In this document: piece after piece, positions 13,351-30,606 of the stretch
Layout: every line of letters starts with the position of its first letter
Position numbering within the stretch: position 1 is the stretch's first letter
From: Gemmatimonas sp.
GTDB taxonomy: Bacteria; Gemmatimonadota; Gemmatimonadetes; Gemmatimonadales; Gemmatimonadaceae
DNA: 64,000 bases
Reading direction: 5' to 3'
NCBI GenBank assembly: GCA_965279375.1
Contig: OZ257156.1
Location: 640,001-704,000, forward strand
Made by a program: the position numbers and the translations under genes
The notes under the pieces: model-generated
Seen by the model: the letters and a program-made list of their open reading frames with translations, nothing else
The model's database searches: none
Told to the model about the DNA's origin: nothing

Positions 13351-15027
<1,677 letters not shown>

Positions 15028-15168: not shown

Positions 15169-16707
15169 TCACGGTGTGGCTGGCCCGGCTCCCATCACTG
15201 TTGCCCGCTCCAACTGCCACCCCTTTGTGCCGTCTCGGTACATCAGGAACACGACGCCGTTGTGCCCGAAGCCGGCGATAGAGCGCCCGACAGGGAGTCT
15301 CACGCGATACGACAGTTCGCCGCGGTTGTTGACCACGTCGTACACCAGCTCACCGGCCTTCGACTGCGCTGAGGTGGTGGGGACGATCCACAGCTGTCCA
15401 TCGAGGTCGGCGCGCGCCGCGCCGGCACGAATGGCCGGGTAGTAGTCCGCGATTTCTTTCAGCGCGACATACTCCACCGAGATGCTCCCGAGCCCTCCGG
15501 GAGGGCCGCCGGGACCGGCACCTGGAGGCCCGCCGCCGAAACCACCCGGTGGACCACCGCCCGGTGGACCGCCGCCCGGAGGACCGCCACCGAAGCCACC
15601 ACCACCGCCCGGCGGCCCACCTCCAAACCCGCCGCCACCCGGCGGGCCGCCACCGAAACCGCCACCCATGGACGCCATTGCGCTCGCGATGGTCGCTTCC
15701 TGCGCCGCAGCGGCCGCCGCGGCCGGATTCGTCGCGGAGGCCTTCGCATCGGCGACGGCCTTGTCCTGCACGGCACGCGCCGAATCGATCAGGGCCTGCT
15801 TGTCTTCGTCCGTCAGTCGCTTCCAGTCGAAGGGCAACTTGGCGGCAGCATACGTCTTGCCATCAGGCTGCGTCACGTCGATGTGATAGTCGTGTCCACG
15901 CACCAAAGCGATGGTGCCGTCGGACAGCACGGCCCATTCGTCCACGGTGTTGATTGGATTGACGATGAGCTTCAGCTGCATCTTGCCATTCGCGTCCAAC
16001 GACATGTTCGGGCGATTGCCGCTCTGCACTTTCAGCTTGCCGATCGTGTCGACGATGCGCGTGTCGAAGTTGGCGCGTAGCAACGGCGCCGAATCCGGCA
16101 CCTGTACTGTCGGCGGCGCCTGGCCAGGCGCAGCGGTCGGCGAAGAGTTCGCCGCGCTTCCCGCTCGGACGGCCACCTGGAGTCCGCCTCGATAAATCAG
16201 ATTGCCCTTGGCATCGACGCCGCTGGCACCTCCAGCGAGGTTGCGCAAATCGTTGGGGCGAGGAGCCGACATCACGTGCGCGATCTTCCCCGTGGGATCG
16301 ATGACGAGCAGCGACAGCGACGTCCCATCGACGAAGAGCGACGAATCGGCAAGATACGGAATGAGCGGTTGTGCACGTGGACCATACCCCTGACCGCCGA
16401 CGGCGACGGAATCCACAACGACCGTCGGATTGCCCAGCGTGTTGTCCAGCACCACCAGCTGTCGGCGCACACCGTCGTTCACCAGTACTCCACCACCGGC
16501 CAGCTGCCGTACGCCGAAGATGTTGCCGAAATACGTGGAGCTCTTGGCGTCGATCGGCGCCAACTCGCGAATGGGCACGGCGCGCTGCGCCGCTGCGGCC
16601 GGTGCGATGATCAGCGGGCAGCCGAGGGCGACAAGAACACCGGCGGTCGCGCGAGAGATCGGTGCGCAAACCGCCGCTTGGAGCGAGAACCAAATGGGTC
16701 GAGTCAT
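15169..16707 (-). CDS. Secreted beta-propeller-like protein with Gly/Pro low-complexity insert
   Basis: Signal peptide ending AAAAQ, beta-rich repeats (DLDGQLW, YDVVNNRGEL), GGPPGG tandem tract. Confidence 0.7.
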   Translation of the reverse strand: MTRPIWFSLQAAVCAPISRATAGVLVALGCPLIIAPAAAAQRAVPIRELAPIDAKSSTYFGNIFGVRQLAGGGVLVNDGVRRQLVVLDNTLGNPTVVVDSVAVGGQGYGPRAQPLIPYLADSSLFVDGTSLSLLVIDPTGKIAHVMSAPRPNDLRNLAGGASGVDAKGNLIYRGGLQVAVRAGSAANSSPTAAPGQAPPTVQVPDSAPLLRANFDTRIVDTIGKLKVQSGNRPNMSLDANGKMQLKLIVNPINTVDEWAVLSDGTIALVRGHDYHIDVTQPDGKTYAAAKLPFDWKRLTDEDKQALIDSARAVQDKAVADAKASATNPAAAAAAAQEATIASAMASMGGGFGGGPPGGGGFGGGPPGGGGGFGGGPPGGGPPGGGPPGGFGGGPPGAGPGGPPGGLGSISVEYVALKEIADYYPAIRAGAARADLDGQLWIVPTTSAQSKAGELVYDVVNNRGELSYRVRLPVGRSIAGFGHNGVVFLMYRDGTKGWQLERATVMGAGPATP

Positions 16708-16777
16708 GACCGATTGACTGAGAGTGATGTGCAACTGGCGTTTCGACGAGCGTGCAGCAACCGCGCCTCCGGCAGTG

Positions 16778-19700
16778 CTATCGGATGAAGAACGCGCCGC
16801 CATCACCCGAGCTCGAGGAGCGCAGGAACTTGAGCACGCGCTCATCGAGATAGTTGGTGAGTTGCAGCGGCAGCTTTCGCTTTTGCGACGCGCTCAACAG
16901 GCGTTTGACGTGTGGAACGAGCGTGATCAGGTAGTCCACGGTCTCTTCGCGCGCGGCGACATAAGCGCCGTACGCCGCCGTGCGATCGTAGTTCGTCGGC
17001 AACGACTCCAGCTGCGCCGAAACTGGCGACCAGAGCGCATCGGCCCGCTGCGTGAACAAGCGGCTCAGCGCCGAGATGCTGTCGGCCTGCAGGCGCGTGA
17101 GCTTGAGCGAATCGGGCTGCTGCAGGATCAGCGCCATCGGATTCGGGATCGTGCTGCTGCCCAGCGCCTTGAGCGATGACGCGTTGAGCTTCGCGCCGTC
17201 TCTCCCTCGTCCTTGATCGAGGCGCTGCGTCAGCACCTGACGTTCACGCGGCGTGCCCACGTCCAGTTGCACACGCAAACTGATCAGCGGGATCTGTCGA
17301 TTCGTGGATTGCGTCGGCCGCGTGCTGCCGAAGCGCTGGTTCACCTCGTACTTGTACTGACGCGTCGCGGGATCGAACCCGCGCACCAGCAGCAGACTCG
17401 CGTCGGGAGCGATTGTCTGTCCCCAGCCGCGGATGTTCTGGCCGTTCACGAGCAAGTCCGCCAACCCGAGGGGATTGTTCACCGTGAAGTTCACGCTCGC
17501 GCGCTTCGGTAGCCGGATCTTCTGCGGATTGAAAGCGAAACTCAGACTGCTGGACGCCGTCCACGGCGACTCGCAACTGCCACGCGACGCCAGCGTCCCC
17601 AACTGACTGCGCAGGCATTTGCGGGCGGAGGCGTCACCGCTCGACAGCAGCGTGCTCATGGCCGAGCCAAGCGCGGCCTCCGAAACGGTGGCCGGATTGA
17701 ACACGAACGCCCGATCGTTGCTGCTGCTGCCATCGCCATTCACGTCGCCCGCAATCGACGGCGTGTATCTCGCGCCGGATTGAAAGGAGATGTTCCACGT
17801 CACGTAGACGACATCGAACACCGGAATGCTGCTGAAACCGACACCGACAGTGTGCCGACCCTGCTGCAGCCCTCGGCCCCATGCCTTTTCGAATGGATCG
17901 CCGACGGTGCTGCTGAAGCCGCGATACTGCTCACTCACCGCCAGCAGCTGATACGACACGTTCCACTTGAGCTTGGGATTCGCCGTCACCGGCTTGAGCG
18001 ACACGAACAGCTGCTTCGTGTCCGAGCGGAGATCGGAGCGCTGCTCAGAGACGCGGAGAAAATCGAGTGTGCGTCGCGTGTCGCCGAGTGCGACGGTGCC
18101 AGTGCGTTCGTCGATGGCGGCGACGTTCGCAAAGACGGGCCGACCACCTTCATTGCTGAGTGTGAATCGCTGAATGTTGGAGAAATTGAGATCGACGGCG
18201 TCTTGCTGACCGAGGTTGAGTGAGAACGTTCCCGAGAGGCCCAGCGCGAAGCGATTGTCGAGCACGGGTCCACTCCAACTCAGACTGCTGCGCCACGATT
18301 TGGACTGCGCGTAATCCTGCGCGAAGAGCGTGACATTCGGCGTCGCATTCGAGAACTGCGTCCCTTGCGTGCCATCGGCGCACGCGCTCGGTATCGACGC
18401 CGGGTTCGTCGCGTAGTCGCTCCAGCGCGGGCTCGGCGATGCCGGCCCATTGCACGAGATCTGTTGCGTGGAGCTTGATAGTCCCGTGCTGTTCACCGCT
18501 CCGGAAATGAGATCGGCGCCGCGCACGTTCTGAAACAGGCCGAGTCCACCCTGAACGACCGCACGCGGCGGTCGCGCGGCGCCGGGCACAAAGTCAATCT
18601 GATTCTGCTTCCCGTAGAACCAGCTGAAGCCCACGCGAGGACTCACAACGAGCCCGTTGGGCACGACGTCGTTCCGCGCACCCAGGCGTTGCTCCAGCAG
18701 CGGGTTTCGATCCGGCGCTGTCAGGAATCGGTTGCCATCAACTCGCGCGCCGAACTGCACCTGCACGTCGGTTGAGGGACGCCACGAATCGCCGAGCGAA
18801 ACGGCACCCGTGAGTTGATTGCCGATGCGTCGCGGTGACGACAGTGTGCGCGTGAACGATGCCGGCTGACCCGCGGCCAGATCAGCGAGGGAGTTGTAGG
18901 CGAAGGAGCCGTACAGATTGGTGCTCTGTTCCGCCGAGCTTTGTTCGGTACGCAACGTCGACGTCAACTTCAGCGCGTGCCGATTGTTTCCGGAGTACCA
19001 GCGCAACTCGTTCGAGAGCTCACCGTTGGTGGTGCGCGAGTTGAGCAGCGACGGATTCCCGCCGAAGGACAACGTACGCACCGCCGCTGAGCCATCGTCC
19101 AATAGCGAGTTGATGCGCACCGTGCCACTCGGGACCCGCAGGTACGGAGCATTCTCCTGTCCCGCCAGGCTGACTCCAATGTTCGTTGTCGACAGAAAAC
19201 TCGACCAGATGTAGGCGCTTTGCTTGGCGGTCAGCTGCGCGCTCCAGCTTTGCGATTCGCCGTTGTGCGCTGGGACGCTGAGGATCGCTGAATTCGTGCC
19301 TACGCCAATACCGCCCACAGCACCGATGGGACCGCCGCCACCGAGCGGAATGTTTCCAAAGCCGCTGTTTCCGCCGATGACCTGTCTGTTTTTGGTGTAG
19401 TTGCCGACGTACCCGAGCGTGAATCCGTTGCCCGTGCCGTTGGCATTCGGCGTGATGTCAAAGTTGCCTTGCGCGAGATACTGATCGGTGATCTGCTGCG
19501 ACGGCGCGCTGGCGATCGAAACCGGAATCTTCAGGCCGCCCAGGATATCGAGCAGTCGCGTGACCGAGTCACGCGCGACGCCGGCCGACGACAAGCCGAG
19601 CGCGCTGGTATTCAGCAGCGACGGCAGATCGTTGAAGCGGCGCGAGACCTGGGCGGACGTGTTGTAGAAATTCCTGTCCATCGTGATCGGCCCACGGCCG

Positions 19701-20545
19701 CCGAAACCCAGCTGGACGTTGGTGTACTTCTTGTTCTGCGCTTGCGCCACATCGTCGGCAAATTGGAGCGTGGGCGAGATGGCGTTCGTGCTGGCTTGAC
19801 GATTCGAAAAATTGGTGCCGGGCTGCGTGGTGACGGAGATGCGTCCGCCGCTGAAGCTTCCGATCGCGGGATCGAACGTTGAGGTCACCACCGTCGCGGT
19901 CACCTGAGCGTCGGAGGGCAACACGCTGACCGCCGAGCCGAGCCCGTTGAACGTGCTGCTGTTCTGATCCGACGAGAGCCCCAGCGCGGAGAAGACGTCG
20001 GCCGCGCCGTCGAGTCCTGGTATGAGTTGGATGCCGGGTAGTCCAGCGGCGAGCACCGCGAGATTTCCCATCTGATCCGGTGACACGCTCTTGTTGTTGA
20101 GCGCCGTCTCATTCCCGCCGACGTTCACGTTGCCGGCGTTGCGGTTGGCCAGCGCGCGCGGACCGTCGGCGCTCACGTTCATCGCGTCCAACGTCGCTAT
20201 GCTCGAGACCAGCTTGGTATCCGCGATCAGGACGTCCTCGTCCGCGATACGCTTGACCTCGAAGCGCTTGCGGACAAAGCCGACCGCGCTGAACTCCAGC
20301 CAATAGTCGCCTTCTCCATTCGGATACGTGATCGAGTAGCGGCCGTTCTTGTCCGAGCGCGTGGTCTTGGCCACGTTGCCCGAGTACCCGGTGGCACGCA
20401 CCATCACGTTCGGCAGCGGCTCGCCGTCTGGACCTGTGATGCGGCCGCGGATGACGTCGAGCGTTTGTGCCGAGGCAACGGACGAAACGAACGCCGCCGC
20501 GCAGATGGCAATGACCTGCAGGACGACACTGCGCGTGAATCGCAT
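16778..20545 (-). CDS. TonB-dependent-receptor-like outer-membrane protein: N-terminal carboxypeptidase-regulatory-like domain, C-terminal helical extension
   Basis: Signal peptide, IRGRITGPDGEPL...SDKNGRYSI domain, amphipathic beta-strands (SPRVGFSW), helical LKLTxxQ tail. Confidence 0.8.
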   Translation of the reverse strand: MRFTRSVVLQVIAICAAAFVSSVASAQTLDVIRGRITGPDGEPLPNVMVRATGYSGNVAKTTRSDKNGRYSITYPNGEGDYWLEFSAVGFVRKRFEVKRIADEDVLIADTKLVSSIATLDAMNVSADGPRALANRNAGNVNVGGNETALNNKSVSPDQMGNLAVLAAGLPGIQLIPGLDGAADVFSALGLSSDQNSSTFNGLGSAVSVLPSDAQVTATVVTSTFDPAIGSFSGGRISVTTQPGTNFSNRQASTNAISPTLQFADDVAQAQNKKYTNVQLGFGGRGPITMDRNFYNTSAQVSRRFNDLPSLLNTSALGLSSAGVARDSVTRLLDILGGLKIPVSIASAPSQQITDQYLAQGNFDITPNANGTGNGFTLGYVGNYTKNRQVIGGNSGFGNIPLGGGGPIGAVGGIGVGTNSAILSVPAHNGESQSWSAQLTAKQSAYIWSSFLSTTNIGVSLAGQENAPYLRVPSGTVRINSLLDDGSAAVRTLSFGGNPSLLNSRTTNGELSNELRWYSGNNRHALKLTSTLRTEQSSAEQSTNLYGSFAYNSLADLAAGQPASFTRTLSSPRRIGNQLTGAVSLGDSWRPSTDVQVQFGARVDGNRFLTAPDRNPLLEQRLGARNDVVPNGLVVSPRVGFSWFYGKQNQIDFVPGAARPPRAVVQGGLGLFQNVRGADLISGAVNSTGLSSSTQQISCNGPASPSPRWSDYATNPASIPSACADGTQGTQFSNATPNVTLFAQDYAQSKSWRSSLSWSGPVLDNRFALGLSGTFSLNLGQQDAVDLNFSNIQRFTLSNEGGRPVFANVAAIDERTGTVALGDTRRTLDFLRVSEQRSDLRSDTKQLFVSLKPVTANPKLKWNVSYQLLAVSEQYRGFSSTVGDPFEKAWGRGLQQGRHTVGVGFSSIPVFDVVYVTWNISFQSGARYTPSIAGDVNGDGSSSNDRAFVFNPATVSEAALGSAMSTLLSSGDASARKCLRSQLGTLASRGSCESPWTASSSLSFAFNPQKIRLPKRASVNFTVNNPLGLADLLVNGQNIRGWGQTIAPDASLLLVRGFDPATRQYKYEVNQRFGSTRPTQSTNRQIPLISLRVQLDVGTPRERQVLTQRLDQGRGRDGAKLNASSLKALGSSTIPNPMALILQQPDSLKLTRLQADSISALSRLFTQRADALWSPVSAQLESLPTNYDRTAAYGAYVAAREETVDYLITLVPHVKRLLSASQKRKLPLQLTNYLDERVLKFLRSSSSGDGGAFFIR

Positions 20546-20621
20546 TGGGGCGAAGCCGGAGAAAGACTCGGGTGCACCGTCCCGTACTGCGATTGACGAG
20601 TGCGTTCGACGTGTCTTTTAG

Positions 20622-20650
20622 GTACCGCGCCCACTTCACAAACGTTTGGT
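20622..20650 (-). promoter_or_regulatory. Predicted ECF-sigma promoter A (ACCAAACGTT-N14-GGTAC) upstream of the 1255-aa receptor
   Basis: Minus strand reads ACCAAAC-gtttgtgaagtgggcgc-GGTAC (17-nt spacer). Matches promoters B and C. Confidence 0.75.
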
Positions 20651-20676
20651 GCGTCTCTGCCGCACCAAGGTGCCGT

Positions 20677-21117
20677 TCAGTTTCGCTGCTGGATTCGTGA
20701 TCGCATGGAATCCAGTCTCGCCCTCTGCGTGGGCGTGAGCACCGAATCGATGGCGCGCTGGTTGCCCTGCATGAGTGAGTCGAGCAGCGGCCGCATCGTT
20801 TGTGCGGCCCGCTGCATCGACTCGAATTGGAGCGACATCAGGCTGTCGACCTGTGTGCGTTGCGTCGGCGAGAGATCAAGCTCGTCCGCCATACGCTCGG
20901 AAATGCGTCGGCGCATCTCGGGCGAGATGGTCGGCGGACCATTGCCCGCCGCAGGAAATGGCGGTGGCATGGGGCCACCGAACCGACGCGGCAGCAGCAC
21001 CGTGCGATCCAGGGCCACGCCGGCGACGGCGCCCACCAGCGCCACGATCAGGAGGACGATCAACGCGGTCCAACGAGGCGAGAGCCCCGCACGAGTACCC
21101 ACCGCCGGATCGCTCAT
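20677..21117 (-). CDS. Membrane-anchored periplasmic Spy/CpxP-like (LTxxQ) protein
   Basis: N-terminal TM, ELDLSPTQ and VLTPTQ motifs, Met-rich helices. Confidence 0.75.
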   Translation of the reverse strand: MSDPAVGTRAGLSPRWTALIVLLIVALVGAVAGVALDRTVLLPRRFGGPMPPPFPAAGNGPPTISPEMRRRISERMADELDLSPTQRTQVDSLMSLQFESMQRAAQTMRPLLDSLMQGNQRAIDSVLTPTQRARLDSMRSRIQQRN

Positions 21118-21548
21118 CGAGCGTCGCGTGAGTCGCGTGAGGCCACGGTCTGTACGCCCAGCAACATCGCGTCTGCGCTCGCGGGGAGCAGCAGTTGATC
21201 GGCGACTTGCAGGGTGAGCGTCGCATCGGCACCCAAGCCGTACGCCAGCAATGAGCTCGGGTCGTCGCGGACCGGCGAGCCTGGCTGGGCACGCACCAAC
21301 ACAATGCAGAGCACGGCCGCGGCGAGTCCGATCGGCACGGCAAAACGCCCGATCGCGCTCGTCGCATCGAGCCAGGATGTCGCCTGCCGGCGACGCTGCG
21401 CCAACGGAAACGCCGCGGCACCGCGAACACGCGCGCGAAGCGCCTCGACCTCGACCGGCGTGCCGACGCGATGCATCGCACGCAAGCGCGCCGCGATGTC
21501 TACGTCGCGCGCGTCGGCAAGATCGTCCGGCAGTTCATCATCCCTCAT
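21114..21548 (-). CDS. Putative anti-sigma factor (single TM)
   Basis: Overlaps the sigma stop by 4 nt. One central TM (AVPIGLAAAVLCIVLV). Confidence 0.65.
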   Translation of the reverse strand: MRDDELPDDLADARDVDIAARLRAMHRVGTPVEVEALRARVRGAAAFPLAQRRRQATSWLDATSAIGRFAVPIGLAAAVLCIVLVRAQPGSPVRDDPSSLLAYGLGADATLTLQVADQLLLPASADAMLLGVQTVASRDSRDAR

Positions 21549-22183
21549 GTGGTCTCCGACATAGTCTCGTCATCACCGTCTCGCAGCACCGCCAGCGCTG
21601 CGCGCAATGTGCGCCGCGCGTCGTGCAGATGCCACCGCACCGTCTGCACGGCGACATTCAGTTCGATCGCGATCTCCGCAGCATTCCATCCTTCCACCTC
21701 GTGCAGCATGATCACCTGTCGCTGTCGTTCCGAAAGCGACGCAACCGCCTGCCCAAAGCGCTCTTCCACATCGACACGGACCGCGTGATCCGCCGGTGTC
21801 GGTGCCGACGCAGCGGCCGTCTCGCTCAGCAGCTCGTGTCGCCGCACCCGTCGTGCCTGCTGATGATTCAGTCCGAGATTGACCAGCAGGCGAAAGAACC
21901 ATGGGGCAAACGGTCGCGATTGGTCGTGTTGCTCCAGTCGATCGAGCGCGCGCAGACACGCGTCCTGCACGAGATCTTCAGCATCTTCCTCGTGTTCAAG
22001 CAGGCGACGCGCGAGTTGCAGTGCTCGGGCAAGGAGCGGCGTGATGAGGGCGTCGAAGGCCGACGCGTCTCCCGCCTGTGCACGTGCCACCAGCGCCGCA
22101 TCCTGCGCGACCGACGACGGCGCGTGTGATTCATCGTCGGGCGATCCCACGCGATCAGCGACGATCCAGCTCTCGTCCGCCAT
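21545..22183 (-). CDS. ECF RNA polymerase sigma factor
   Basis: Region 2 (GDASAFDAL, DAEDLVQDA, FAPWFFRL) and region 4 (LSERQRQVIML, EIA...TVRWHLHDARRTL). Confidence 0.93.
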   Translation of the reverse strand: MADESWIVADRVGSPDDESHAPSSVAQDAALVARAQAGDASAFDALITPLLARALQLARRLLEHEEDAEDLVQDACLRALDRLEQHDQSRPFAPWFFRLLVNLGLNHQQARRVRRHELLSETAAASAPTPADHAVRVDVEERFGQAVASLSERQRQVIMLHEVEGWNAAEIAIELNVAVQTVRWHLHDARRTLRAALAVLRDGDDETMSETT

Positions 22184-22886
22184 CCGGGGACGCTAGCTTC
22201 GGCACCGCCTTCCGCAAGGACGCGGTTTGTGCGTCGAGCACTTTCGTTGCACGATCGCGTTGCTCATCGGTCACGAGCGCCAAACACGACGCCACATCTG
22301 CGGGACGCCGCTCAACGAGCGCGTCGCCGATCTCGGCCATCACCTTCATCGCCTGCATCGTCACCGCCATCTTCTTGTCATCGGGCGCGGCACCGCCACC
22401 CGCCGGCGGTCCTCCCATGCCACCCCCCGGCGGTCCCCCCATACCGCCTCCCGGTGGGCCCCCCATGCCACCACCCGGTGGGCCCGACATCCCCTCGGGC
22501 GGACGCGGCGGCTTGAAATCCCGGCGCACGGAATCGTACCTCGCGATCAAGTCCGCATTGCGCTCGAAGAGCCGCGCCCGCAGCGCGGAGAGTGAATCCA
22601 GCTGCGCGTCGGTCAGCTTCAACGACTTCTTGTCCCGCAACAGGGCCTCTGCCGCGTTGAACGCTTCGAGCTCTTTCGCCGTCGCGAACTTCGGCATCGC
22701 GCCGCCGCGCGGCATCGGCGCCATTCCGCGACCACCCATGCCTCCCGGCGGACCACCCATTCCGCCGCCCATCCCGCCCTGCGCTCGCACTGTTGTCGCG
22801 GTCGAATGCAGCAGCATGACGTTCGCGAGGCACAGCAGCGCGAACACCGCGCGGGGCATCGGTTGCTTTGTGATCAGTCGGTCCAT
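22155..22886 (-). CDS. Secreted Gly/Pro/Met-rich LTxxQ-like helical protein
   Basis: Signal peptide (…TVRAQ), GGMGGPPG repeats, SLKLTDAQ motif. Alternative start at 22859. Confidence 0.7.
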   Translation of the reverse strand: MDRLITKQPMPRAVFALLCLANVMLLHSTATTVRAQGGMGGGMGGPPGGMGGRGMAPMPRGGAMPKFATAKELEAFNAAEALLRDKKSLKLTDAQLDSLSALRARLFERNADLIARYDSVRRDFKPPRPPEGMSGPPGGGMGGPPGGGMGGPPGGGMGGPPAGGGAAPDDKKMAVTMQAMKVMAEIGDALVERRPADVASCLALVTDEQRDRATKVLDAQTASLRKAVPKLASPDGGRELDRR

Positions 22887-22961
22887 GACGCGGTTCCTCG
22901 CGTGTACAGGTTCAACGAAAGACGCCAGGCCCAAACCGGGCGTTCATCCTCAACTGATCAA

Positions 22962-22990
22962 GTACCGTCGCGTGGCGCCGAACGTTTGGT
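22962..22990 (-). promoter_or_regulatory. Predicted ECF-sigma promoter B upstream of the sigma operon (autoregulatory)
   Basis: Minus strand reads ACCAAAC-gttcggcgccacgcgac-GGTAC (17-nt spacer). Confidence 0.75.
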
Positions 22991-23052
22991 GGGCCGCTGG
23001 CGTGCATCGCGCGCCGTCCACTTGTGCGCAAGCCATCGGCGCGGCGCCACGA

Positions 23053-23706
23053 TCACCGTTCGTCTGCTGCGGCAAAACCGTCCGAGAGGATGCGGCTGAG
23101 TTGTCCTATCAGTCGCAGCTGAAGGGCGGTCGCTTCCGCGTGGATGCCGTGCGCCTCCGGTGGTGCCAGGTGCATCGCGGCCACGCACGCGCCGAGCATG
23201 CAGTGCGCACGCAGCAGCGCGAGCTCGTCGCGGTCGTCTACCGACGTCTTCTCTGCGGGGTCTACAGGCTGACCCTCGGTCAGCGCCGCGAGACTCCGCC
23301 CAAGCGGTCGAGAGCGCATGACCAGTGCGTCCCGAATGACAACGCGAAGCGCACCCGTCGGGCGGAGCAATTCGTTGCTCAACAATTGGAGGTGCACGCT
23401 CTCTGGCTCTCCTCGAAGCGCCGCGCCGACCAGGCTACTCACCAGAGCGTGGAGCGATGCCTGCCTGCTCGTTCGAGGAGACGGGAGGGCGTCGAGCGGA
23501 CGCAGCGACTGCTCGAGGGCCGCGTCGATGGCGGCCGCGTAGAGGGCTGCCTTGCTGCCGAAGTGGTAGTTGATGGCCGCCTGATTGGCCTTCGCGCGGT
23601 CGGTGATCTCACGTACGGTCGCGGACTCGTAGCCGCGAGCGGCAAAGACATCCATCGCGGCGTCGAGCAGGCGCAGACGTGTTTCGACGGATCGAGGATG
23701 CGTCAT
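23053..23706 (-). CDS. TetR/AcrR family regulator (CecR/CerR-like)
   Basis: TRLRLLDAAMDVFAARGYESATVREITDRAKANQAAINYHFGSKAALY HTH. Confidence 0.9.
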   Translation of the reverse strand: MTHPRSVETRLRLLDAAMDVFAARGYESATVREITDRAKANQAAINYHFGSKAALYAAAIDAALEQSLRPLDALPSPRTSRQASLHALVSSLVGAALRGEPESVHLQLLSNELLRPTGALRVVIRDALVMRSRPLGRSLAALTEGQPVDPAEKTSVDDRDELALLRAHCMLGACVAAMHLAPPEAHGIHAEATALQLRLIGQLSRILSDGFAAADER

Positions 23707-23726
23707 TCATCCCTGTACCCGCGGCA

Positions 23727-23742
23727 TCAAACAAACGTTTGA
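23727..23742. promoter_or_regulatory. Putative TetR operator TCAAAC-N4-GTTTGA
   Basis: Perfect 6-bp AT-rich inverted repeat 20 nt upstream of the TetR start, in the divergent intergenic region. Confidence 0.65.
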
Positions 23743-23844
23743 AACGGACTCGGTACGCCAGCTGCATCAAGTCGACGCCTGGTCGGCGACCGCCGACCCG
23801 GACGCGTGCGTCCGTCACGTTCACCGCAGCCGCGGGAGTTCCCC

Positions 23845-24324
23845 ATGCAGATCGGAAGCATCGGCAGTTTCGCACCATCGCAGGCCATGCGCGACAAGAT
23901 GTTTGCCAGGATCGACAACAATAGTGACGGCAAGCTGAGTCTCGACGAGTTCAAGGCGGGATCGCCCAAGGGTGACGCCGCCAAGGGACCGGGCGCGCCG
24001 ACGGCGGCCCAGACGGAGAAGATGTTCAAGACGTTCGACTCCGACGGCGATGGCTCGCTGACGCAGCAGGAAATGGATGCTGGCATGGATGCGATCGGCC
24101 AGAAGCTCAAGGCTGCCATGGCCCAGCATGCGACGGGCGACAGCACATCGTTGGTCGACATGCCATTCGGCGAGAAGGATGCGACGTCCGGCGACAGCCG
24201 CGCGACGGACGACTCCTCCACTGACGCGACAAGCAAGACGCAGCAGCAGCGCCAGGTGCAGTGGATACTGGATGCGTTCGTAAGTCAGCAGAAGGTTGCG
24301 GCAGCATCCGCGTACAACAGCTGA
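23845..24324 (+). CDS. EF-hand calcium-binding protein
   Basis: Two canonical EF loops, DNNSDGKLSLDE and DSDGDGSLTQQE. SD GGGAG upstream. Confidence 0.85.
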   Translation: MQIGSIGSFAPSQAMRDKMFARIDNNSDGKLSLDEFKAGSPKGDAAKGPGAPTAAQTEKMFKTFDSDGDGSLTQQEMDAGMDAIGQKLKAAMAQHATGDSTSLVDMPFGEKDATSGDSRATDDSSTDATSKTQQQRQVQWILDAFVSQQKVAAASAYNS

Positions 24325-24333
24325 TCACGGCGG

Positions 24334-24362
24334 ACCAAACGTTTCGCCGACGTCAGTGGTAC
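24334..24362 (+). promoter_or_regulatory. Predicted ECF-sigma promoter C upstream of the TBDR-DUF4249 pair
   Basis: ACCAAAC-gtttcgccgacgtcagt-GGTAC (17-nt spacer). Confidence 0.72.
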
Positions 24363-24553
24363 ATGTCGTCGGCGAGGCGTGCGTGATGACGTGTCGCTCG
24401 CTCGTCGTTGCACAAGATTTCGCACTCGCGCGACGCAGTGCATGCACACGCGAGAGCGCGTAGGGTTCGTCTGCGATGTCGTGTTCATCTGTCCGTCCAC
24501 GTGCAGCGGTGCGTTGCGTTCGCCACGCCGCCCTGTACCAAGCCGGGTCTCGT

Positions 24554-27037
24554 ATGAACAATCCACATCGCGTCGTGATCCTCTGGCGTGCCACACTGCT
24601 CGCGACGATGTTCGCAGCAAGCGTTGCCGGAGCGCAGACACAAACTCCACCGCGTACCATCACGCTCACCGGAGTCGTGCGCGACTCGATTACAGGCGAA
24701 GTGTTGCCGAACGCGCGCGTCGGTATCAATGCGCTCACGCGTGCGGTGCAGACCAATGCCGACGGTCGCTTCGCCCTGCTCGGTGTGCCCGCCACGGTGC
24801 AGACACTGCGAGTGCAATACATCGGATATGGGTCGCGCACCTTGGTCATTCGCGCCGACACCATCAAGGCGCCGATCACCGTGACGCTCGCGCGCGCGGT
24901 CGTGCAACTCGCAGCGACTGACGTCAAGGCGCAGACAGATCAGTCACCCACCGTCGCCGCGATCGGACGTGACGCTGGACAGCTCGCCATTTCCACAGCG
25001 CAGGTGGAGGCAATGCCAAGCGTTGGCGAAGCCGACGTGTTTCGAACGTTGCAGATGTTGCCGAGTGTGGCCGGCGCGGGAAACGGGACGGCGAGTCTGT
25101 CGGTACGAGGTGGCACGGCGGATCAGAATCTCGTGCTGCTCGACGGCATGACCGTATACCATGTCGATCACTTCTTCGGCCTCTTCAGCGCCTTCAACAC
25201 GGATGCACTTAAAGACATTCAGTTGTACGCGGGTGGATTTCCCGCACGATACGGCGGGCGCGTCTCCTCGGTCATCGACCTCACCGGCAAGGCCGGCGAC
25301 GAGAAGGAATTCCACGCAAGCGGCGGTGCGAGTCTCCTGAGCGCGCGCGGGGTCGTTGAGATTCCGTTGGGTCGCGGCGCCTTGCTCATTTCCGGCCGAC
25401 GATCATACACGGATGTCATCAAGAGCTCGCTGTACGGCAAACTGTTCGATTTCGCCAAGAGCCAAAGTGGCTCGACGCAGCAGGCCGGACCTGGCGGCGG
25501 CAATCCCTTTCAGCGACAAAGCGTCGATCCTTCATTCTACTTCTACGACTTCAACGCCAAACTGACGTATCGTCCGTCATCCCGCGATGTCACGACGCTC
25601 AGTGCATACAGCGGACTCGATAATCTCGACCAGTCGCAATCGCTTGGCGGCTTTCCCGGCCAGTCGACGACCGCGGCCCGCACGACACTCAGCGACATCA
25701 CGGAGTGGGGGAACAAGGGTGTCAGTGCGCGCTGGTTCCGGCAGTGGGCCAGTCGCCTCAGTACCGACGCGTTGCTGTCGTCGTCGCACTACACCAGCAA
25801 CGGCGACCGCTCCTCGAGCGGAGGCGGGCCGACCACTGGCGGCGCTCGTTCGACGTTTGGCTTCGTCGAAAAGAACAGCGTCAACGATCTGACGGCGCGA
25901 ATCGAAAACTCGCTGGCCGTTGCGCCATGGTCCCGCGTCGACTTCGGTGTGTGGTCCACGCGCAACGCGGTCACCTACGACTTTCTGGTCGGCGCCAACG
26001 ATTCCACGCAGCGTGGACGCAATACCAGTCGCAACGGCACCGCAAATCTTACCGCCGGCTATCTGCAGCACACCTGGACGCCCATTGCGGCGGTCGACAT
26101 CACCACCGGCGCGCGGGCCAACCGCTACAGCGCGACGAGCGACACATACATCGAGCCTCGCGCCGCCGTCGGTTTACAACTCACGCAGTCGTTGAGACTC
26201 AAGAGTGCGTGGGGGAAGTACCATCAGTTCGTGAATCGAGTGGAGAACGAAGACGTGCTCTCCGGCAGCCGGGATTTCTGGCTGCTCGCCGATACCGCGC
26301 TGCGTCCGCAGGCGGCGACGCATACGATCGTCGGTGTGCAGTATGATCGCCCTTCGTGGGCATTCAACGTGGAGGCGTACGACAAGCGACTGGAAAACGC
26401 GACCCTGTTTTCGCGGCGGTACCGTCAGGCGCTCGGCGTGAACACTGGCTCGTTCTTCTTCACGGGAACCGGTCGATCGCGCGGCATCGAACTGCTGTAC
26501 GAAAAGAAGAGAGGCGCGGTGACGGGGTGGGCCAGCTACACGCTCGCCAAGGCAACCAATCGTTTCGCGAATGTCGACCAGGGGCGCGAGTTCGCGTCGT
26601 CACAGGATCAGCGCCACGAACTGAAGGGCTTTGGCACGGTGCAACTGGGCGGCATCGACTTCTCCAGCACCGCCATCTTCGGTTCCGGTCGCCCGTACAC
26701 CGCCCCTGTTGGTCAGTACCAGATCAAACTGCTCGACGGATCGACGCAGACGTACATCAACGTCGGCGACAAGAACGGGGAGCGACTCGCCGCGTATCAA
26801 CGCGTCGACCTCTCGGCGTCAAAGCTGATCAAGACGGAGGGTACGTTCGACTGGCGAGTCGGTGTGTCGCTCTACAACGTCGCCAACCGCAAGAACATTT
26901 CGTATCGCAGGTTTGATCTGAGTTCGTCGCCGATGTCGATCAGCGATGTCACGCAGCTGGGCTTCACGCCGAGCATTGATGTCAAACTCACGCTGCGCAG
27001 TCTCAAGGATCGCAGCCCGTACCTGGAGCAGAAATGA
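24554..27037 (+). CDS. TonB-dependent receptor
   Basis: Signal peptide, carboxypeptidase-regulatory-like N-domain, plug motifs (SVRGGTADQNLVLLDG, GGFPARYGGRVSSV), barrel. Confidence 0.92.
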   Translation: MNNPHRVVILWRATLLATMFAASVAGAQTQTPPRTITLTGVVRDSITGEVLPNARVGINALTRAVQTNADGRFALLGVPATVQTLRVQYIGYGSRTLVIRADTIKAPITVTLARAVVQLAATDVKAQTDQSPTVAAIGRDAGQLAISTAQVEAMPSVGEADVFRTLQMLPSVAGAGNGTASLSVRGGTADQNLVLLDGMTVYHVDHFFGLFSAFNTDALKDIQLYAGGFPARYGGRVSSVIDLTGKAGDEKEFHASGGASLLSARGVVEIPLGRGALLISGRRSYTDVIKSSLYGKLFDFAKSQSGSTQQAGPGGGNPFQRQSVDPSFYFYDFNAKLTYRPSSRDVTTLSAYSGLDNLDQSQSLGGFPGQSTTAARTTLSDITEWGNKGVSARWFRQWASRLSTDALLSSSHYTSNGDRSSSGGGPTTGGARSTFGFVEKNSVNDLTARIENSLAVAPWSRVDFGVWSTRNAVTYDFLVGANDSTQRGRNTSRNGTANLTAGYLQHTWTPIAAVDITTGARANRYSATSDTYIEPRAAVGLQLTQSLRLKSAWGKYHQFVNRVENEDVLSGSRDFWLLADTALRPQAATHTIVGVQYDRPSWAFNVEAYDKRLENATLFSRRYRQALGVNTGSFFFTGTGRSRGIELLYEKKRGAVTGWASYTLAKATNRFANVDQGREFASSQDQRHELKGFGTVQLGGIDFSSTAIFGSGRPYTAPVGQYQIKLLDGSTQTYINVGDKNGERLAAYQRVDLSASKLIKTEGTFDWRVGVSLYNVANRKNISYRRFDLSSSPMSISDVTQLGFTPSIDVKLTLRSLKDRSPYLEQK

Positions 27038-27885
27038 TCCTCTCGCGTCCGATCCCACGTGTCGCCGCGATGATCGGCGGCATCACTCTCGCCGTGGCTG
27101 CGGCGTGCGGCGATGTGACCTCCACTGCGCCAAGTGTTCGTCAGCCCGTGGTGCGCGCCTACTTGTACGCGGGCCAGCCGGTCAACGATATCCGGCTGAC
27201 GTGGACCGCACCGATCGGCACCGCCGACTCTGTCGCAGACAGCATCGCGCCGCCGATCAACAGCGCGCAAGTCGTGCTGGAGCGCGGCGGCTCGCGTTTT
27301 GTCCTCTCGCCTGCTCCCGGAGACAGCGGCTACTATCGCTACACCGGAACGGACTTGGTCGTCCGCGAAGGCGATGTGTTCGACCTGATCGCGACGATTG
27401 ACGGACAAACGCTGACAGCCCGCACCTCCGTGCCGGTACGTCCATCGGGCGCGCGCGTGTCGTCCGCCGTGCTCAAGGTGCCCACCTTCTCGTTTGGATC
27501 CGGACCGCCCGACTTCAGCGCCTCGACGGTCCAGGTGCGATGGCAAGCGGTGAATGGTGGGCTCTACTTCGTCACGCTGGAAAACACGGAGAAATCGCCA
27601 ACGACTATCGACCTCGGCTTTCCGGGAGGCGTGACGAATCGCGTGCGACGCATCGTGTTTCCACCAACCTCGGCGGACAGCGTGCCGGTGAACATCTTCT
27701 CGCTCTCGTATTTGGGAAAGCACACGGTGCGCGTCTGGCGCGTGAACGACGAGTACGCGCAGCTCTATGCGACGCTCCAGCAGGATTCCCACGACCTCAA
27801 CGAGCCGGCCACGAATATTCACGGGGGCCTCGGCGTGTTCAGCGCCTTCGCGGCCGACTCCACCACCATCACCGTGGTCAAATAG
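27034..27885 (+). CDS. DUF4249-like lipoprotein
   Basis: Lipobox AAAC, C-terminal TNIHGGLGVF, ATGA overlap with the TBDR stop. Confidence 0.8.
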   Translation: MILSRPIPRVAAMIGGITLAVAAACGDVTSTAPSVRQPVVRAYLYAGQPVNDIRLTWTAPIGTADSVADSIAPPINSAQVVLERGGSRFVLSPAPGDSGYYRYTGTDLVVREGDVFDLIATIDGQTLTARTSVPVRPSGARVSSAVLKVPTFSFGSGPPDFSASTVQVRWQAVNGGLYFVTLENTEKSPTTIDLGFPGGVTNRVRRIVFPPTSADSVPVNIFSLSYLGKHTVRVWRVNDEYAQLYATLQQDSHDLNEPATNIHGGLGVFSAFAADSTTITVVK

Positions 27886-27998
27886 GCGAGACCCTCACCA
27901 GGAACGGGACTCGAGCTCACCCGGGTTCCGCCCCCTTTCCACGTCCCCGTACCATTCCGGAGGGAACGGACCGGCCCCCAATCCCCTATGTTTCGCAC

Positions 27999-28730
27999 GT
28001 GATTCAGATAACCGACGTCTCCGCCCAGCTCTCCGGCAACCCCGCCGCCGCCCTCCCGCTCCTCTTTGGCGCGGGGGTGCTGACGTCGTTGACGCCCTGC
28101 GTCTACCCGATGATCCCGATCACCGCGGCCATCGTCGGCGGGCAATCGGCCGCCGAACAGGCAGGGACGGCGATCGTCTCGCGGTGGCGCCCGCTGCTGC
28201 TGTCGCTCACGTACGTGCTGGGTCTCGCCTCGGTCTACGCCGGCTTAGGCCTGCTGGCCGGCCTCACCGGGACCATGTTCGGCACGGTCAGCGCCAATCC
28301 GTGGGCGTTCTTCGCGATGGCCAACCTGCTGCTGCTGGCCGCGCTCTCCATGCTCGACGTCATCCCGGTCCGCGTTCCGGCGGCCATCCTGCAACGGGCC
28401 TCCAACGCGGGAACCGGCGGACGGGTCGCGGGTGCTTTCATCATGGGTGCAGCCTCAGGTCTCGTGGCCGCCCCCTGCTCTGCACCGGTCATGGCCGCCG
28501 TCCTCACCTGGGTCAGCACCACGGGCAGTGCGCTCCTCGGCTTCGCGTACCTGTTCACCTTCTCGCTCGGCATGTGCACGCTACTGGTGATCGTCGGCCT
28601 CTCGGCTGGCGCCATCGCCCGTCTGCCACGCGCCGGCACCTGGATGCTGTGGGTCAAGCGCGGATTCGCCGCCATCATGCTCGGCATGGCCGAGTACTAT
28701 CTCGTCAAAATGGGTCAGGTCTACTTCTGA
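27999..28730 (+). CDS. ccdA: Cytochrome c biogenesis / DsbD-beta protein CcdA
   Basis: SLTPCVYPMIP and AAPCSAP motifs, multiple TMs. GTG start. Confidence 0.88.
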   Translation: MIQITDVSAQLSGNPAAALPLLFGAGVLTSLTPCVYPMIPITAAIVGGQSAAEQAGTAIVSRWRPLLLSLTYVLGLASVYAGLGLLAGLTGTMFGTVSANPWAFFAMANLLLLAALSMLDVIPVRVPAAILQRASNAGTGGRVAGAFIMGAASGLVAAPCSAPVMAAVLTWVSTTGSALLGFAYLFTFSLGMCTLLVIVGLSAGAIARLPRAGTWMLWVKRGFAAIMLGMAEYYLVKMGQVYF

Positions 28731-28744
28731 CCCCGGAGTCGTTC

Positions 28745-29296
28745 ATGCGTTTTGCCCTGCCCGTCATCCGCACCGCCAACGCTTCACTGCGTCTCTGGCT
28801 CGCCTTCTTCGCGCTCCTGACGGCCACCGTCGCCAAGCCGCTGACGGCCCACGGCACCGTGGCCGCGCAGGACACGGGTATCGCGATCGGCGAAAAGGCG
28901 CCGGGCGGTCCGCTCGAAACGCTGGACGGCAAGATCGTCGACTTCTCGAGCTATGTGGGCAAGGGCCCGCTGGTCATCGAGTTCTGGGCGACGTGGTGCG
29001 GCAACTGCAAGCAGCTCGAACCGTCGCTGCGCGCCGCAGTCACCAAGTACGCCGCGCAGGCCAAGTTCGTCACCATCGCGGTGTCGATCAATCAGTCGAT
29101 CGAGCGCGTGAAGGCGTGGCAGGCGATCAACAAGATGCCCGGCGAAATGCTCTACGATCGCAAGGGCATCGTGTCGGGTGCGTTCGATGCGCCGGCCACC
29201 AGCTACGTCGTGGTGCTCGACAAGACCGGCAAGGTGGTCTACACCGGCGTCGGCGGCACCCAGAACGTGGATGCCGCCATCAAGAAGGCGCTGTAA
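28745..29296 (+). CDS. TlpA/ResA-like thiol-disulfide oxidoreductase
   Basis: FWATWCGNC motif, signal peptide, directly downstream of ccdA. Confidence 0.88.
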   Translation: MRFALPVIRTANASLRLWLAFFALLTATVAKPLTAHGTVAAQDTGIAIGEKAPGGPLETLDGKIVDFSSYVGKGPLVIEFWATWCGNCKQLEPSLRAAVTKYAAQAKFVTIAVSINQSIERVKAWQAINKMPGEMLYDRKGIVSGAFDAPATSYVVVLDKTGKVVYTGVGGTQNVDAAIKKAL

Positions 29297-29331
29297 CCGG
29301 ATGGTTGTAGCCGGAGCGCGGTAACGCGAGG

Positions 29332-30606
29332 TTAATCCGGCGTCTTCGCCGCGTTGCTCAGGACCACCGCGTCCTTCGCATCAAAGCCCACCTGCAGCTT
29401 GGCCGCCTCAGCGACGGCGGCCAACGCCTGCCCCGACGACTGCAGACCGATGCGCAGCGACACGGTGCGCGTCCCCAGCGACGGATCGGCCAGCGACGCG
29501 TTCACGTCGAACCAACGCTGCAGCTCCGGCAACACCGTGGACATCGGCGCGTTGACGAAGACCAGCGTATCGTGCACCCACTCGAGCGCCAGCTGACGCG
29601 TCGCGTCGTCGAGCATCTGCACGCTGCCGTCCTTGCCGAGCCGCATCGCCTTGCCCGCATCCACCGTCGTGGTACCACTCGCGACCGTAGCGCGCACCGA
29701 CACGCTCCCTTCATCCACGCCGATGTAGACCGCGCTGTCCTCCGGGAAGGCACGCACAGTGAACACCGTGCCCGTGGCGGTCACGACGGCGTTCCCCGCA
29801 CGCACCACGAATGCACGCGAAAGCCCCTGCTTGACCGTGAACATCGCCGTGCCGTTCAACTCCAACGTGCGCACGTTGCCGCCGAAATCGTTGGGCAACT
29901 TGAGGTGCGAATCGGAGCCCAGCTTGGCCAGTGAGCCGTCGCTCAACGTCACGCCGCCGCGCTGACCGCGCGCTGAATTGACGGTGCGCGCGTTGTCCGC
30001 TTTCAGTGCTTGCGTCGCGGCCACCTCTTCGCTGCTCGCGCCAAGCCAGCGCATGAGACCGAGCACCGCAATCGTGCCAATCACGACGATGACCGTCGGG
30101 GCTTTCCAACCTCGTCCGCGCGCGACCTGCTGCACATGTTCGGCGGCGGCATGCTTGCGTGCCGCTTGCGCCGCTTCCTGCGCCACGGCGTGGTCCACCG
30201 GCGCCGCGTGCAGCTCGGCCAGCAATCGGTCCACCGCTTCATCGGCGGAGGCTACGCTGAGATGCGATGCCTTTGATGCGTCCGCGGAGACTCGCGTCGT
30301 GTGGTCGCCGTGATGCAACGCCTGATGCTTGCGACGCTGGATTGCTGCTTCGGTGCGAATCGCGTCCTCGAGCGCAGCCGTCAGTCCGATGACGTTCTCG
30401 TAGCGGTCGCGGCGATCCCACGTGGTGAGCATCGCCTGCTGCGCAACGCGTCCGCTGAAGTGCGCGAGATCGGCGCCTAACGCGTCGGCAGCGAGCTCAG
30501 TGAGCGCGTCGTACTGCGTGCGGTATATGCGCGCGAGCGCGTGTTCATCTCCACTGGCGAACGCGCGAAACTGCGTGATGTCTGGTGGTTGCAGCAGGTC
30601 GGCCAT
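29332..30606 (-). CDS. FecR-domain membrane protein with sigma70 region-2-like N-terminus
   Basis: FecR motifs (VTLSDGS, GTAMFTV, ATGTVFTV, DEGSVSV), central TM, N-terminal GDEHALARIY...AQQAMLTTW segment. SD GGAGG upstream of 30606. Confidence 0.8.
   Translation of the reverse strand: MADLLQPPDITQFRAFASGDEHALARIYRTQYDALTELAADALGADLAHFSGRVAQQAMLTTWDRRDRYENVIGLTAALEDAIRTEAAIQRRKHQALHHGDHTTRVSADASKASHLSVASADEAVDRLLAELHAAPVDHAVAQEAAQAARKHAAAEHVQQVARGRGWKAPTVIVVIGTIAVLGLMRWLGASSEEVAATQALKADNARTVNSARGQRGGVTLSDGSLAKLGSDSHLKLPNDFGGNVRTLELNGTAMFTVKQGLSRAFVVRAGNAVVTATGTVFTVRAFPEDSAVYIGVDEGSVSVRATVASGTTTVDAGKAMRLGKDGSVQMLDDATRQLALEWVHDTLVFVNAPMSTVLPELQRWFDVNASLADPSLGTRTVSLRIGLQSSGQALAAVAEAAKLQVGFDAKDAVVLSNAAKTPD

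What the first reader, a model, noticed from the sequence alone, without database searches (positions are those of the whole stretch)
20622..24362. Three exactly spaced ACCAAACGTT-N14-GGTAC motifs define a candidate ECF-sigma regulon
Seen: the same 29-bp bipartite motif, with an identical 17-nt spacer between CCAAAC and GGTAC, occurs at 22990-22962 (-, before the operon containing the sigma gene), 20650-20622 (-, before the 1255-aa receptor) and 24334-24362 (+, before the TBDR-DUF4249 pair). Each copy is intergenic and points toward its gene, and the spacer interiors differ, so this is not a simple duplication. Known: ECF sigmas recognise AAC-containing -35 elements and usually autoregulate. 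Inference: this is the cognate promoter of the sigma at 21545-22183, with a GGTAC -10 element.
Basis: partly seen in the sequence, partly recalled or inferred. Interest (0 to 1): 0.85.

Follow-up and report, generated by a model that had tools for sequence, protein, structure and literature searches.

The report
Four promoters of a stress sigma
A short two-part DNA motif stands four times in front of neighbouring genes in this Gemmatimonadota bacterium and in front of the same genes in relatives; it is likely the promoter read by the adjacent alternative sigma factor, which would switch on chaperone-like and outer-membrane proteins, a familiar kind of switch.

Summary
The three copies are real, and there is a fourth (23715-23743, before a TetR gene). 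AAACGTT-N14-GGTAC occurs four times in the 5.3-Mb genome, all within 3.7 kb. The sigma heads a conserved ECF / single-pass anti-sigma / Spy-like (LTXXQ) cassette. An unbiased search upstream of 40 homologous sigmas returns the same motif and spacing, C[CA]AAC[GA]-N16-NGTA[CT]. It recurs in 7 of 25 held-out loci and 0 of 64 unrelated ECF loci, and before some orthologues of both transporter genes. The -13 base tracks the sigma residue known to read it (RpoE Asn84 position), and homologous sites carry an initiator signal at the expected start. A near-universal paralogous ECF (Asp at that position) appears to have a separate, dispersed CGTA regulon in the same genome. The GGTAC sites fit the local sigma better. 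No transcript data exist, so promoter activity and the inducing signal (likely envelope stress) are inferred. The architecture is known (ECF111/281/290-like). The promoter consensus matches none of the group descriptions searched, and group membership could not be tested by HMM.

The parts
20622..20650 (-). Predicted ECF promoter (-35 CAAACG at 20648-20643, -10 GGTAC at 20626-20622) before the 1255-aa receptor; lies between the Spy-like gene and the receptor
   Evidence: same type of site at the same distance before the 80%-identical orthologue in G392
22962..22990 (-). Predicted autoregulatory ECF promoter before the Spy-like / sigma / anti-sigma / Spy-like operon
23715..23743 (-).
   Evidence: start-site offset from PMC7776599
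23727..23742 (.). Inverted repeat TCAAAC-N4-GTTTGA over the -35 of the fourth site; candidate TetR self-operator, unique in the genome
   Evidence: a like palindrome precedes a related TetR in L078
24334..24362 (+). Predicted ECF promoter before the TonB-dependent receptor / DUF4249 pair
   Evidence: like site before orthologues in G300 and G399
21545..22183 (-). ECF sigma factor, 212 aa (sigma2 + sigma4, no sigma3 hit); R183 and N106 align with RpoE Arg171 and Asn84
21114..21548 (-). Likely anti-sigma factor, 144 aa: about 65 cytoplasmic residues, one transmembrane helix (69-87), short outer part; no Pfam family, no zinc motif
20677..21117 (-). Membrane-anchored Spy/CpxP-like protein, 146 aa, two LTxxQ motifs
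22155..22886 (-). Exported Gly/Pro/Met-rich protein with LTxxQ-like motifs, 243 aa from the ATG at 22886; first gene of the sigma operon
   Evidence: features score 0.89, a lead only; proteins in the same position in relatives hit LTXXQ, DUF4890 or Metal_resist, mostly below cut-off
16778..20545 (-). 1255-aa outer-membrane receptor-like protein with a C-terminal tail bearing two LTxxQ-like motifs
   Evidence: hhalign 90%, E 1.7e-6 to the Spy-like family
15169..16845 (-). Uncharacterised protein behind the receptor (ORF limits; true start probably further in); follows 3 of the receptor's paralogues too; likely co-transcribed
23053..23706 (-). TetR-family regulator with weak CecR_C match
24554..27037 (+). 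TonB-dependent receptor (ORF opens at 24476; likely start 24554)
27034..27885 (+). DUF4249 lipoprotein, a putative transporter lid
   Evidence: 10.1101/2023.03.17.533168 passage

Best explanation
The motif, present four times in this gene cluster and conserved before the same genes in relatives, is likely the -35/-10 promoter (CAAACG-N16-GGTAC) of the ECF sigma factor at 21545-22183, which would drive its own operon, a receptor, a TetR gene and a TonB-dependent receptor/lid pair. Shown: the four sites, their conservation and spacing, the cassette's make-up. Inferred from ECF biology: at rest the single-pass protein at 21114-21548 holds the sigma at the membrane; a periplasmic signal, most likely misfolded envelope protein sensed through the Spy/CpxP-like proteins or the anti-sigma's outer part, frees it; sigma4 reads CAAAC, sigma2 reads GGT and flips the A at -10; positive feedback runs through the sigma's own promoter, and co-induced anti-sigma and Spy-like proteins shut it off. 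Asn106 likely lets this sigma accept G or T at -13, which separates its compact four-site regulon from the dispersed CGTA regulon of a near-universal paralogue with Asp there. TetR may repress only its own promoter. Odds: sites are ECF promoters about 0.93; the local sigma is the main reader about 0.85; envelope-protein stress is the trigger about 0.6.
For: De novo gapped-word search in 40 sigma-upstream regions: top words CCAA-N19-GTA and AACG-N17-GTA, 19 and 18 of 40 against about 1 expected. Fixed pattern in 500 nt upstream, sense strand: 17 of 40 training loci; 7 of 25 held-out loci after dropping L107, which repeats training locus L068; 0 of 64 unrelated ECF loci; other spacers 13-20 give 0-1, except N15 with 5 of 40 (Fisher p 7e-5, kin not independent). 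Allowing GTAG, 5 of 11 same-genus loci have the site directly before the sigma, all with GGTA. TonB-receptor orthologues: GGTA-type site in 3 of 6 sigma-bearing genomes (own included) and 0 of 11 genomes in which the sigma was not found. The -13 base covaries best with residue 106 of 170 columns: C in 1 of 42 sites with Asn, in 17 of 21 with Asp/Ser/Thr; this is the pair mutated in PMC7776599. The paralogue has Asp in 30 of 30 loci and C in 8 of 8 sites. Pyrimidine-purine at -1 or +1 in 46 of 63 homologous sites against 24-38 in 19 other windows (67% reported for ECF promoters). Sigma/anti-sigma model: score 0.69, best of 3 controls 0.00, contacts agree at least 81%, partner pLDDT at least 73; that mark was reached by 116 of 157 solved complexes and 2 of 215 mismatched pairs, and a pass may reflect likeness to solved sigma/anti-sigma pairs.
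Against: No transcript or binding data. Only 1 of the 4 sites here has the pyrimidine-purine pair at -1/+1. The covariation is not significant on the tree: 4 changes in each trait but only 2 independent pairs on well-supported branches, one concordant, p = 1. In the published swap series Asn still prefers CG (0.40) over TG (0.19) and GG (0.08); Asp gives CG 0.62, GG 0.05, TG 0.02, so -13 shifts preference without fully insulating. 19 of 40 training loci have no strict site on either strand within 500 nt. Before the 1255-aa receptor the site is kept only in the nearest orthologue, and in none of 22 more distant homologues. The TonB-receptor contrast without the own genome is 2 of 5 against 0 of 11, p 0.083. 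The shared TT after AAACG is tighter than the family consensus explains.
Confidence: 0.83

Rival explanations
1. The sites are ECF promoters but are read mainly or equally by the paralogous ECF at G000:C1:2403298-2404014 (35% identical, same sigma/anti-sigma/Spy-like layout), so the cassette is a branch of a larger phylum-wide envelope regulon.
For: The paralogue is found in 79 of 81 family genomes and its sites share CAACG/AAACG-N16-GTA. GGTA-type sites stand before genes of the paralogue's neighbourhood in G388 (L263, L268). Asp at that position retains some GG activity, 0.05 against 0.62 for CG.
Against: Paralogue sites have C at -13 in 8 of 8 autoregulatory and 25 of 30 receptor loci; all four sites here have G. 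The one receptor promoter that switched to CAAACG/GGTAC is in a genome with the local-type sigma (1 of 7 such genomes, 0 of 23 others). In this genome C-type sites are dispersed (17 intergenic at N16 against 0-6 at other spacers), while G/T-type sites show little excess beyond the four (9 against 0-4).
Confidence: 0.1
2. The near-palindromic AAACGTT core is an operator of the neighbouring TetR protein, which controls all four promoters, alone or on top of the sigma.
For: All four sites share AAACGTT, tighter than the family consensus (TT after the hexamer in 4 of 26 seed sites). A perfect 6+6 inverted repeat covers the site before tetR.
Against: The other three sites miss 5-6 of the 12 arm bases of that repeat. 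The motif is conserved in relatives whose loci gave no match to this TetR, and no close TetR orthologue was found in 120 family genomes (best E 9e-18). An operator does not explain a fixed, strand-specific GTA 16 nt away.
Confidence: 0.04
3. Same promoter and sigma, but the system is a metal-sensing or nutrient-uptake switch (CnrX/CnrY/CnrH-like or FecI-like) rather than a response to misfolded envelope proteins.
For: Two of four targets are receptor genes, one with a DUF4249 lid. Metal_resist matches, below cut-off, 6 of 47 +2 proteins. ECF290/291 descriptions tie such cassettes to metals. TolC-type efflux genes lie behind the motif in several relatives.
Against: LTXXQ matches 40 of 47 and the profile's best solved relatives are Spy chains. 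No FecR domain in the +1 gene. The most constant target across relatives is a second Spy-like protein, not a transporter.
Confidence: 0.25
4. Chance, or remnants of a local duplication with no function.
For: None beyond the small number of copies.
Against: 0 of 100 shuffles; spacers and flanks near background identity; same motif and spacing across the phylum and absent in 64 control loci.
Confidence: 0.01

Closest known systems
ECF111, ECF03s10 and ECF281s2 cassettes (Casas-Pastor et al. 2021, PMC7826278; supplementary passages and parts 9, 29, 30 read)
   Same: ECF, single-pass anti-sigma at +1, LTXXQ or heavy-metal-resistance protein at +2, conserved autoregulatory motif, proposed envelope-stress or metal role.
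   Different: Listed promoters are TTGAACCT/GTCTAAA (ECF111), TTAAACC/TC (ECF03) and GGAACTT/GTCTAA (ECF281); ECF281 anti-sigmas have a zinc finger; Gemmatimonadetes are not listed for these groups.
ECF290 (PMC7826278, supplement part 30)
   Same: Single-pass anti-sigma with no Pfam domain at +1, membrane-bound helical protein at +2, an EF-hand gene nearby.
   Different: Proteobacteria and Planctomycetes only; low-information ACGG/CGT motif; no second Spy-like gene or receptor targets described.
Bacillus subtilis SigW, ECF245 (promoter from PMC7826278 supplement; structure 5wuq)
   Same: AAC-type -35 and a GTA -10; the sigma2 loop aligns as HDQSRPF with FDINRKF, in keeping with an A at -10 (role of this loop: PMC8103513 passage).
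   Different: TGAAAC/CGTAT against CAAACG/GGTAC; different anti-sigma and neighbours; diderm host with outer-membrane targets.
Thermus thermophilus sigmaE with anti-sigma TTHB212
   Same: sigE/anti-sigma operon (PMC4153023 passage). I recall a promoter consensus of similar shape and spacing; this is recalled and comes from no call.
   Different: The primary paper was not held, so neither the consensus nor any kinship was tested.
Paralogous ECF pairs with overlapping promoters, such as EcfG1/EcfG2 and SigT/SigU (PMC8103513 passages)
   Same: Two related ECFs in one genome with near-identical motifs, one broad and one narrow.
   Different: Here each has its own membrane anti-sigma and Spy-like gene, and the split maps to one promoter base and one residue.

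Membership tests
ECF (group IV) sigma factor | sigma2 and sigma4 domains, no sigma3 | tested here: met
   Pfam Sigma70_r2 47-110, Sigma70_r4_2 141-193, no r3 hit; TIGR02937 above cut-off
ECF (group IV) sigma factor | Conserved bipartite autoregulatory motif at fixed spacing upstream of the sigma operon | tested here: met
ECF (group IV) sigma factor | Sigma-dependent transcription from the motif | not testable with these tools
   needs TSS mapping or reporters
ECF with membrane anti-sigma | Conserved single-pass protein at +1 whose cytoplasmic part binds sigma2 and sigma4 | tested here: met
   Single hydrophobic helix in the window and in 50 related loci; model score 0.69 against best control 0.00 with contacts on both domains; a prediction, not a measurement
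ECF111 | LTXXQ or metal-resistance protein at +2 | tested here: met
   LTXXQ matched by 40 of 47 orthologues at E <= 0.01
ECF111 | Promoter TTGAACCT / GTCTAAA | tested here: not met
ECF281 | Zinc-finger anti-sigma | tested here: not met
   No conserved Cys/His in alignment A4; no Pfam match in 46 members
ECF281 | Promoter GGAACTT / GTCTAA | tested here: not met
ECF290 | Pfam-less single-pass anti-sigma plus membrane-bound helical protein at +2 | tested here: met
ECF290 | Promoter ACGG / CGT | tested here: inconclusive
   The published motif is of low information; AACG overlaps it, G after it is not conserved (19 of 63), and -13 is C in only 18 of 63
ECF25 (subgroup s4 holds Gemmatimonadetes) | Promoter GGAAC / GTC (given for s1 and s2 only); anti-sigma with zinc domain, DUF4384 or DUF4349 | tested here: inconclusive
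   Neither feature fits, but no motif is given for s4
ECF245 (SigW) | Promoter TGAAAC / CGTAT | tested here: not met
   Consensus begins with C, not TG; -13 is G here
Any ECF 2.0 group | Score against the group HMM | not testable with these tools
   The ECF Hub models are not among the libraries
Spy/CpxP (LTXXQ) family, protein 20677-21117 | Two LTxxQ motifs in a helical periplasmic domain, sequence kinship to Spy | tested here: met
   Invariant L82/Q86 and L127/Q131; profile hits Spy 3oeo at E 1.6e-7; all-helical model, pLDDT 84.5
Spy/CpxP (LTXXQ) family, protein 20677-21117 | Structural match to Spy/CpxP | tested here: inconclusive
   Only generic helical hairpins, best Z 6.6

The most novel reading that the evidence does not exclude
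Gemmatimonadota run two sister ECF envelope systems on almost the same promoter, split by one base (-13) and one sigma residue: a universal one with a dispersed CGTA regulon and a patchy one with a compact GGTA/TGTA regulon. Genes move between the two by small promoter changes (seen once, in G453), and their shared cargo is a family of outer-membrane receptors that carry their own Spy-like chaperone or sensor tail, each paralogue wired to a different ECF.
Probability: 0.4. Interest if true: 0.6.

Novelty: new variant of a known kind. Interest (0 to 1): 0.4.

Why it matters
It gives a concrete sigma, promoter and target list for a phylum with almost no regulatory genetics: one paper held 'Gemmatimonas', 'ECF sigma' and 'promoter' together, and it is on sigma-54 (search listing); the readable datasets of the largest ECF regulon survey name no Gemmatimonadota (two large files could not be read). 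The sigma, anti-sigma and promoter are a ready candidate for an orthogonal switch. The paralogue pair is a natural test of how one residue and one base keep related ECFs apart. A specialist would not be surprised by an autoregulated ECF with Spy-like neighbours.

Tried and rejected
RNA evidence: no RNA holder listed; no reads were laid. One search scanned 301 genomes with a spacer one base too short, so it served only as a rough negative control (0 hits in the own genome). Fold searches with the Spy-like model gave no specific match; the receptor-tail profile did not hit Spy itself among solved structures at E <= 1. The TetR search gave only 7 distant homologues, 6 of them behind ABC permease genes and so without their own promoter region. 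The metagenome scan with the 243-aa protein gave 3 loci without the sigma. No sigma-70 consensus promoter in 14500-30000 (0 found, 1.8 expected). A divergent promoter for the EF-hand gene (23845-24324) was considered: a GGTAC lies on that strand, but candidate -35 hexamers sit at N14 and N18, not N16; rejected. Further G/T-type sites in the genome (258055, 535664 and three more) are near the chance level, and their conservation was not tested. The -35 variant (CAAAC or CCAAC) did not map to a sigma4 contact residue. Covariation was not significant in the tree-aware test. 'GGTA' and 'GTAC' do not occur in the held text of the ECF 2.0 supplement, which was cut when stored, and none of the CAAC/AAAC/CGTA/TGTA passages gives this pair. 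Earlier notes by place and by sequence: nothing.


Full report
Observation. One mismatch adds a fourth at 23715-23742 on the minus strand, ending 9 nt before the start of a TetR-family gene. In the whole genome (5,309,734 bases, one contig) AAACGTT-N14-GGTAC occurs four times, all here; 17 other spacings give two hits together. Spacers and flanks are close to background similarity, so only the two boxes and their distance are shared.

Gene context. On the minus strand the order is tetR, a 243-aa exported Gly/Pro/Met-rich protein, the ECF sigma, a 144-aa single-pass protein, a 146-aa membrane-anchored protein, a 1255-aa receptor-like barrel and an unknown protein. On the plus strand lie an EF-hand gene, a TonB-dependent receptor and a DUF4249 lipoprotein. 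Named homologues are from Gemmatimonadota. The 146-aa protein belongs with Spy/CpxP: 40 of 47 orthologues match LTXXQ at E <= 0.01, and their profile finds Spy at E 1.6e-7; fold searches were uninformative. The 144-aa protein has no Pfam match in 46 members, but its cytoplasmic part is modelled on the sigma with score 0.69 against a best control of 0.00, touching sigma2 and sigma4 (mark reached by 116 of 157 solved and 2 of 215 mismatched pairs; run agreement at least 81%, partner pLDDT at least 73; likeness to solved pairs may contribute). That two-site binding is the described mode of anti-sigma factors (PMC7406223, passages).

Conservation of the motif. I fetched 40 of the best-scoring sigma homologues among 301 phylum genomes. 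An unbiased count of gapped words upstream gave CCAA-N19-GTA (19 of 40) and AACG-N17-GTA (18 of 40) at the top, against about 1 expected, and also on the opposite strand (13 and 12), as back-to-back promoters. The fixed pattern C[CA]AAC[GA]-N16-NGTA[CT] was then counted in 500 nt upstream: 17 of 40 training loci on the sense strand, 10 on the other; 2 of 11 same-genus and 6 of 15 GTDB held-out loci, or 7 of 25 after dropping L107, a repeat of L068; 0 of 64 loci of unrelated ECFs (one more dropped for short flank; three metagenome loci held no sigma). Spacers 13-20 other than 16 gave 0-1, except 5 of 40 at N15. Allowing GTAG, 5 of the 11 same-genus loci have the site right before the sigma, each with GGTA. 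The gene most often placed behind a second site is another exported Spy-like protein; TolC-type, CotH-like and receptor genes vary. For this genome's transporter targets: a GGTA-type site precedes the TonB receptor orthologue in 3 of 6 sigma-bearing genomes with full flanks (own included) and 0 of 11 in which the sigma was not found; it precedes the 1255-aa receptor's nearest orthologue (80%) at the same distance, but none of 22 more distant homologues.

Is it a promoter, and whose? Counting from the A of GTA as -10, 46 of 63 homologous sites have a pyrimidine-purine pair at -1 or +1, against 24-38 in 19 neighbouring windows. PMC7776599 (parts 2 and 3 of 7 and passages read; Dataset S3 parts 1-2) reports 67% for ECF promoters. 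Only one of this genome's four sites has the pair. The same paper shows by mutation that the RpoE Asn84 position sets -13/-12 and Arg171 sets -31. Here residue 106 is the top covarying column of 170 for the -13 base: C in 1 of 42 sites with Asn, 17 of 21 with Asp, Ser or Thr. On a tree both traits change four times, but only two independent pairs rest on well-supported branches and the sign test gives p = 1. The published values agree in direction (Asn: TG 0.19, GG 0.08; Asp: TG 0.02, GG 0.05), yet Asn still favours CG in that scaffold. Arg183 fits C at -31 (0.88).

The paralogue. The genome holds a second ECF/anti-sigma/Spy-like cassette among efflux genes. Its sigma is found in 79 of 81 family genomes (the tally includes two unpublished genomes, G156 and G321), whereas the local sigma is found in 14 of 87 genus genomes, three of these at weaker similarity. 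It has Asp at the key position in 30 of 30 loci and C at -13 in all 8 sites found. An orthologous set of receptor paralogues carries GAAACG-N16-CGTA in 25 of 30 genomes; one has switched to CAAACG-N16-GGTAC, in a genome that has the local-type sigma (1 of 7 against 0 of 23). In this genome C-type sites at N16 are intergenic and upstream of a gene 17 times (0-6 at other spacers), G/T-type sites 9 times (0-4), four of them the cassette's (gene calls are my own rough ones). The simplest reading is a broad regulon for the paralogue and a compact one for the local sigma, with some cross-reading possible.

TetR. The fourth site lies under a 6+6 inverted repeat that is unique in the genome; the other sites miss 5-6 of its 12 arm bases. 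A related TetR has a like repeat. TetR probably represses its own promoter only. The predicted start coincides with its ATG.

Comparison with known groups. The layout matches ECF111, ECF03s10, ECF281s2 and ECF290, but the promoters of the first three differ and that of ECF290 is too vague to test (PMC7826278: main-text passages, supplement parts 9, 29, 30 and searched passages; file cut when stored). The nearest characterised promoter in those passages is that of SigW. Gemmatimonadetes are listed under ECF19, 25, 41, 56 and 248; ECF25s4 cannot be excluded for lack of the models. Four earlier notes of this scan describe like cassettes in other genomes, so the kind is recurrent.

Verdict. A real, conserved ECF promoter and a four-site regulon, predicted with good comparative support and no direct test. 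Known architecture, a promoter consensus not found in the catalogue text searched, and a sister sigma that differs at one base. Interest 0.4.

Noticed in passing
G000:C1:2402465-2404014 (L175): Second ECF/anti-sigma/Spy-like cassette between EmrAB-TolC and MacAB-TolC-like genes, near-universal in the family, with about 15 predicted CGTA-type promoters across the genome, among them two MoxR ATPase genes and a tailed receptor.
   Followed up: partly
G000:C1:1576413-1580165 and orthologues L296-L325: Two ECF-type promoters in tandem before this receptor: an upstream G(G)AAC-type site whose -10 GTC abuts the -35 of the GAAACG-N16-CGTA site; both are kept in most of the 30 genomes.
   Followed up: partly
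window 16778-17230 and six paralogues (L176-L181): All seven large receptor paralogues end in a helical tail with two LTxxQ-like motifs; their upstream regions show different ECF-like motifs.
   Followed up: partly
L301 (G453:C55): The receptor promoter reads CAAACG-N16-GGTAC where 25 relatives read GAAACG-N16-CGTA: an apparent move between two regulons.
   Followed up: partly
L045, L049, L051, L063, L067, L103: Back-to-back promoters whose -35 elements start about 9-13 bases apart drive the sigma one way and a Spy-like or TolC gene the other.
   Followed up: no
L031, L084: A CotH-like kinase gene heads the sigma operon in two close relatives, with the promoter moved in front of it.
   Followed up: no
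window 23845-24324 (+): Small two-EF-hand protein divergent from tetR, with no N16 site of its own; it shares the intergenic region with the TetR repeat and may be a TetR target. An effector model matches it only far below cut-off.
   Followed up: partly
window 27885-29296 (+): Behind DUF4249 lie a probable DsbD-type membrane protein (its end shows in the frame of ORF 24476-27037's neighbour in the raw translation; not examined) and a TlpA/ResA-like thioredoxin at 28745-29296; they may be read through from the 24334 promoter.
   Followed up: no
window 29332-30747 (-): FecR-domain gene next to the cluster; its partner sigma was not sought.
   Followed up: no
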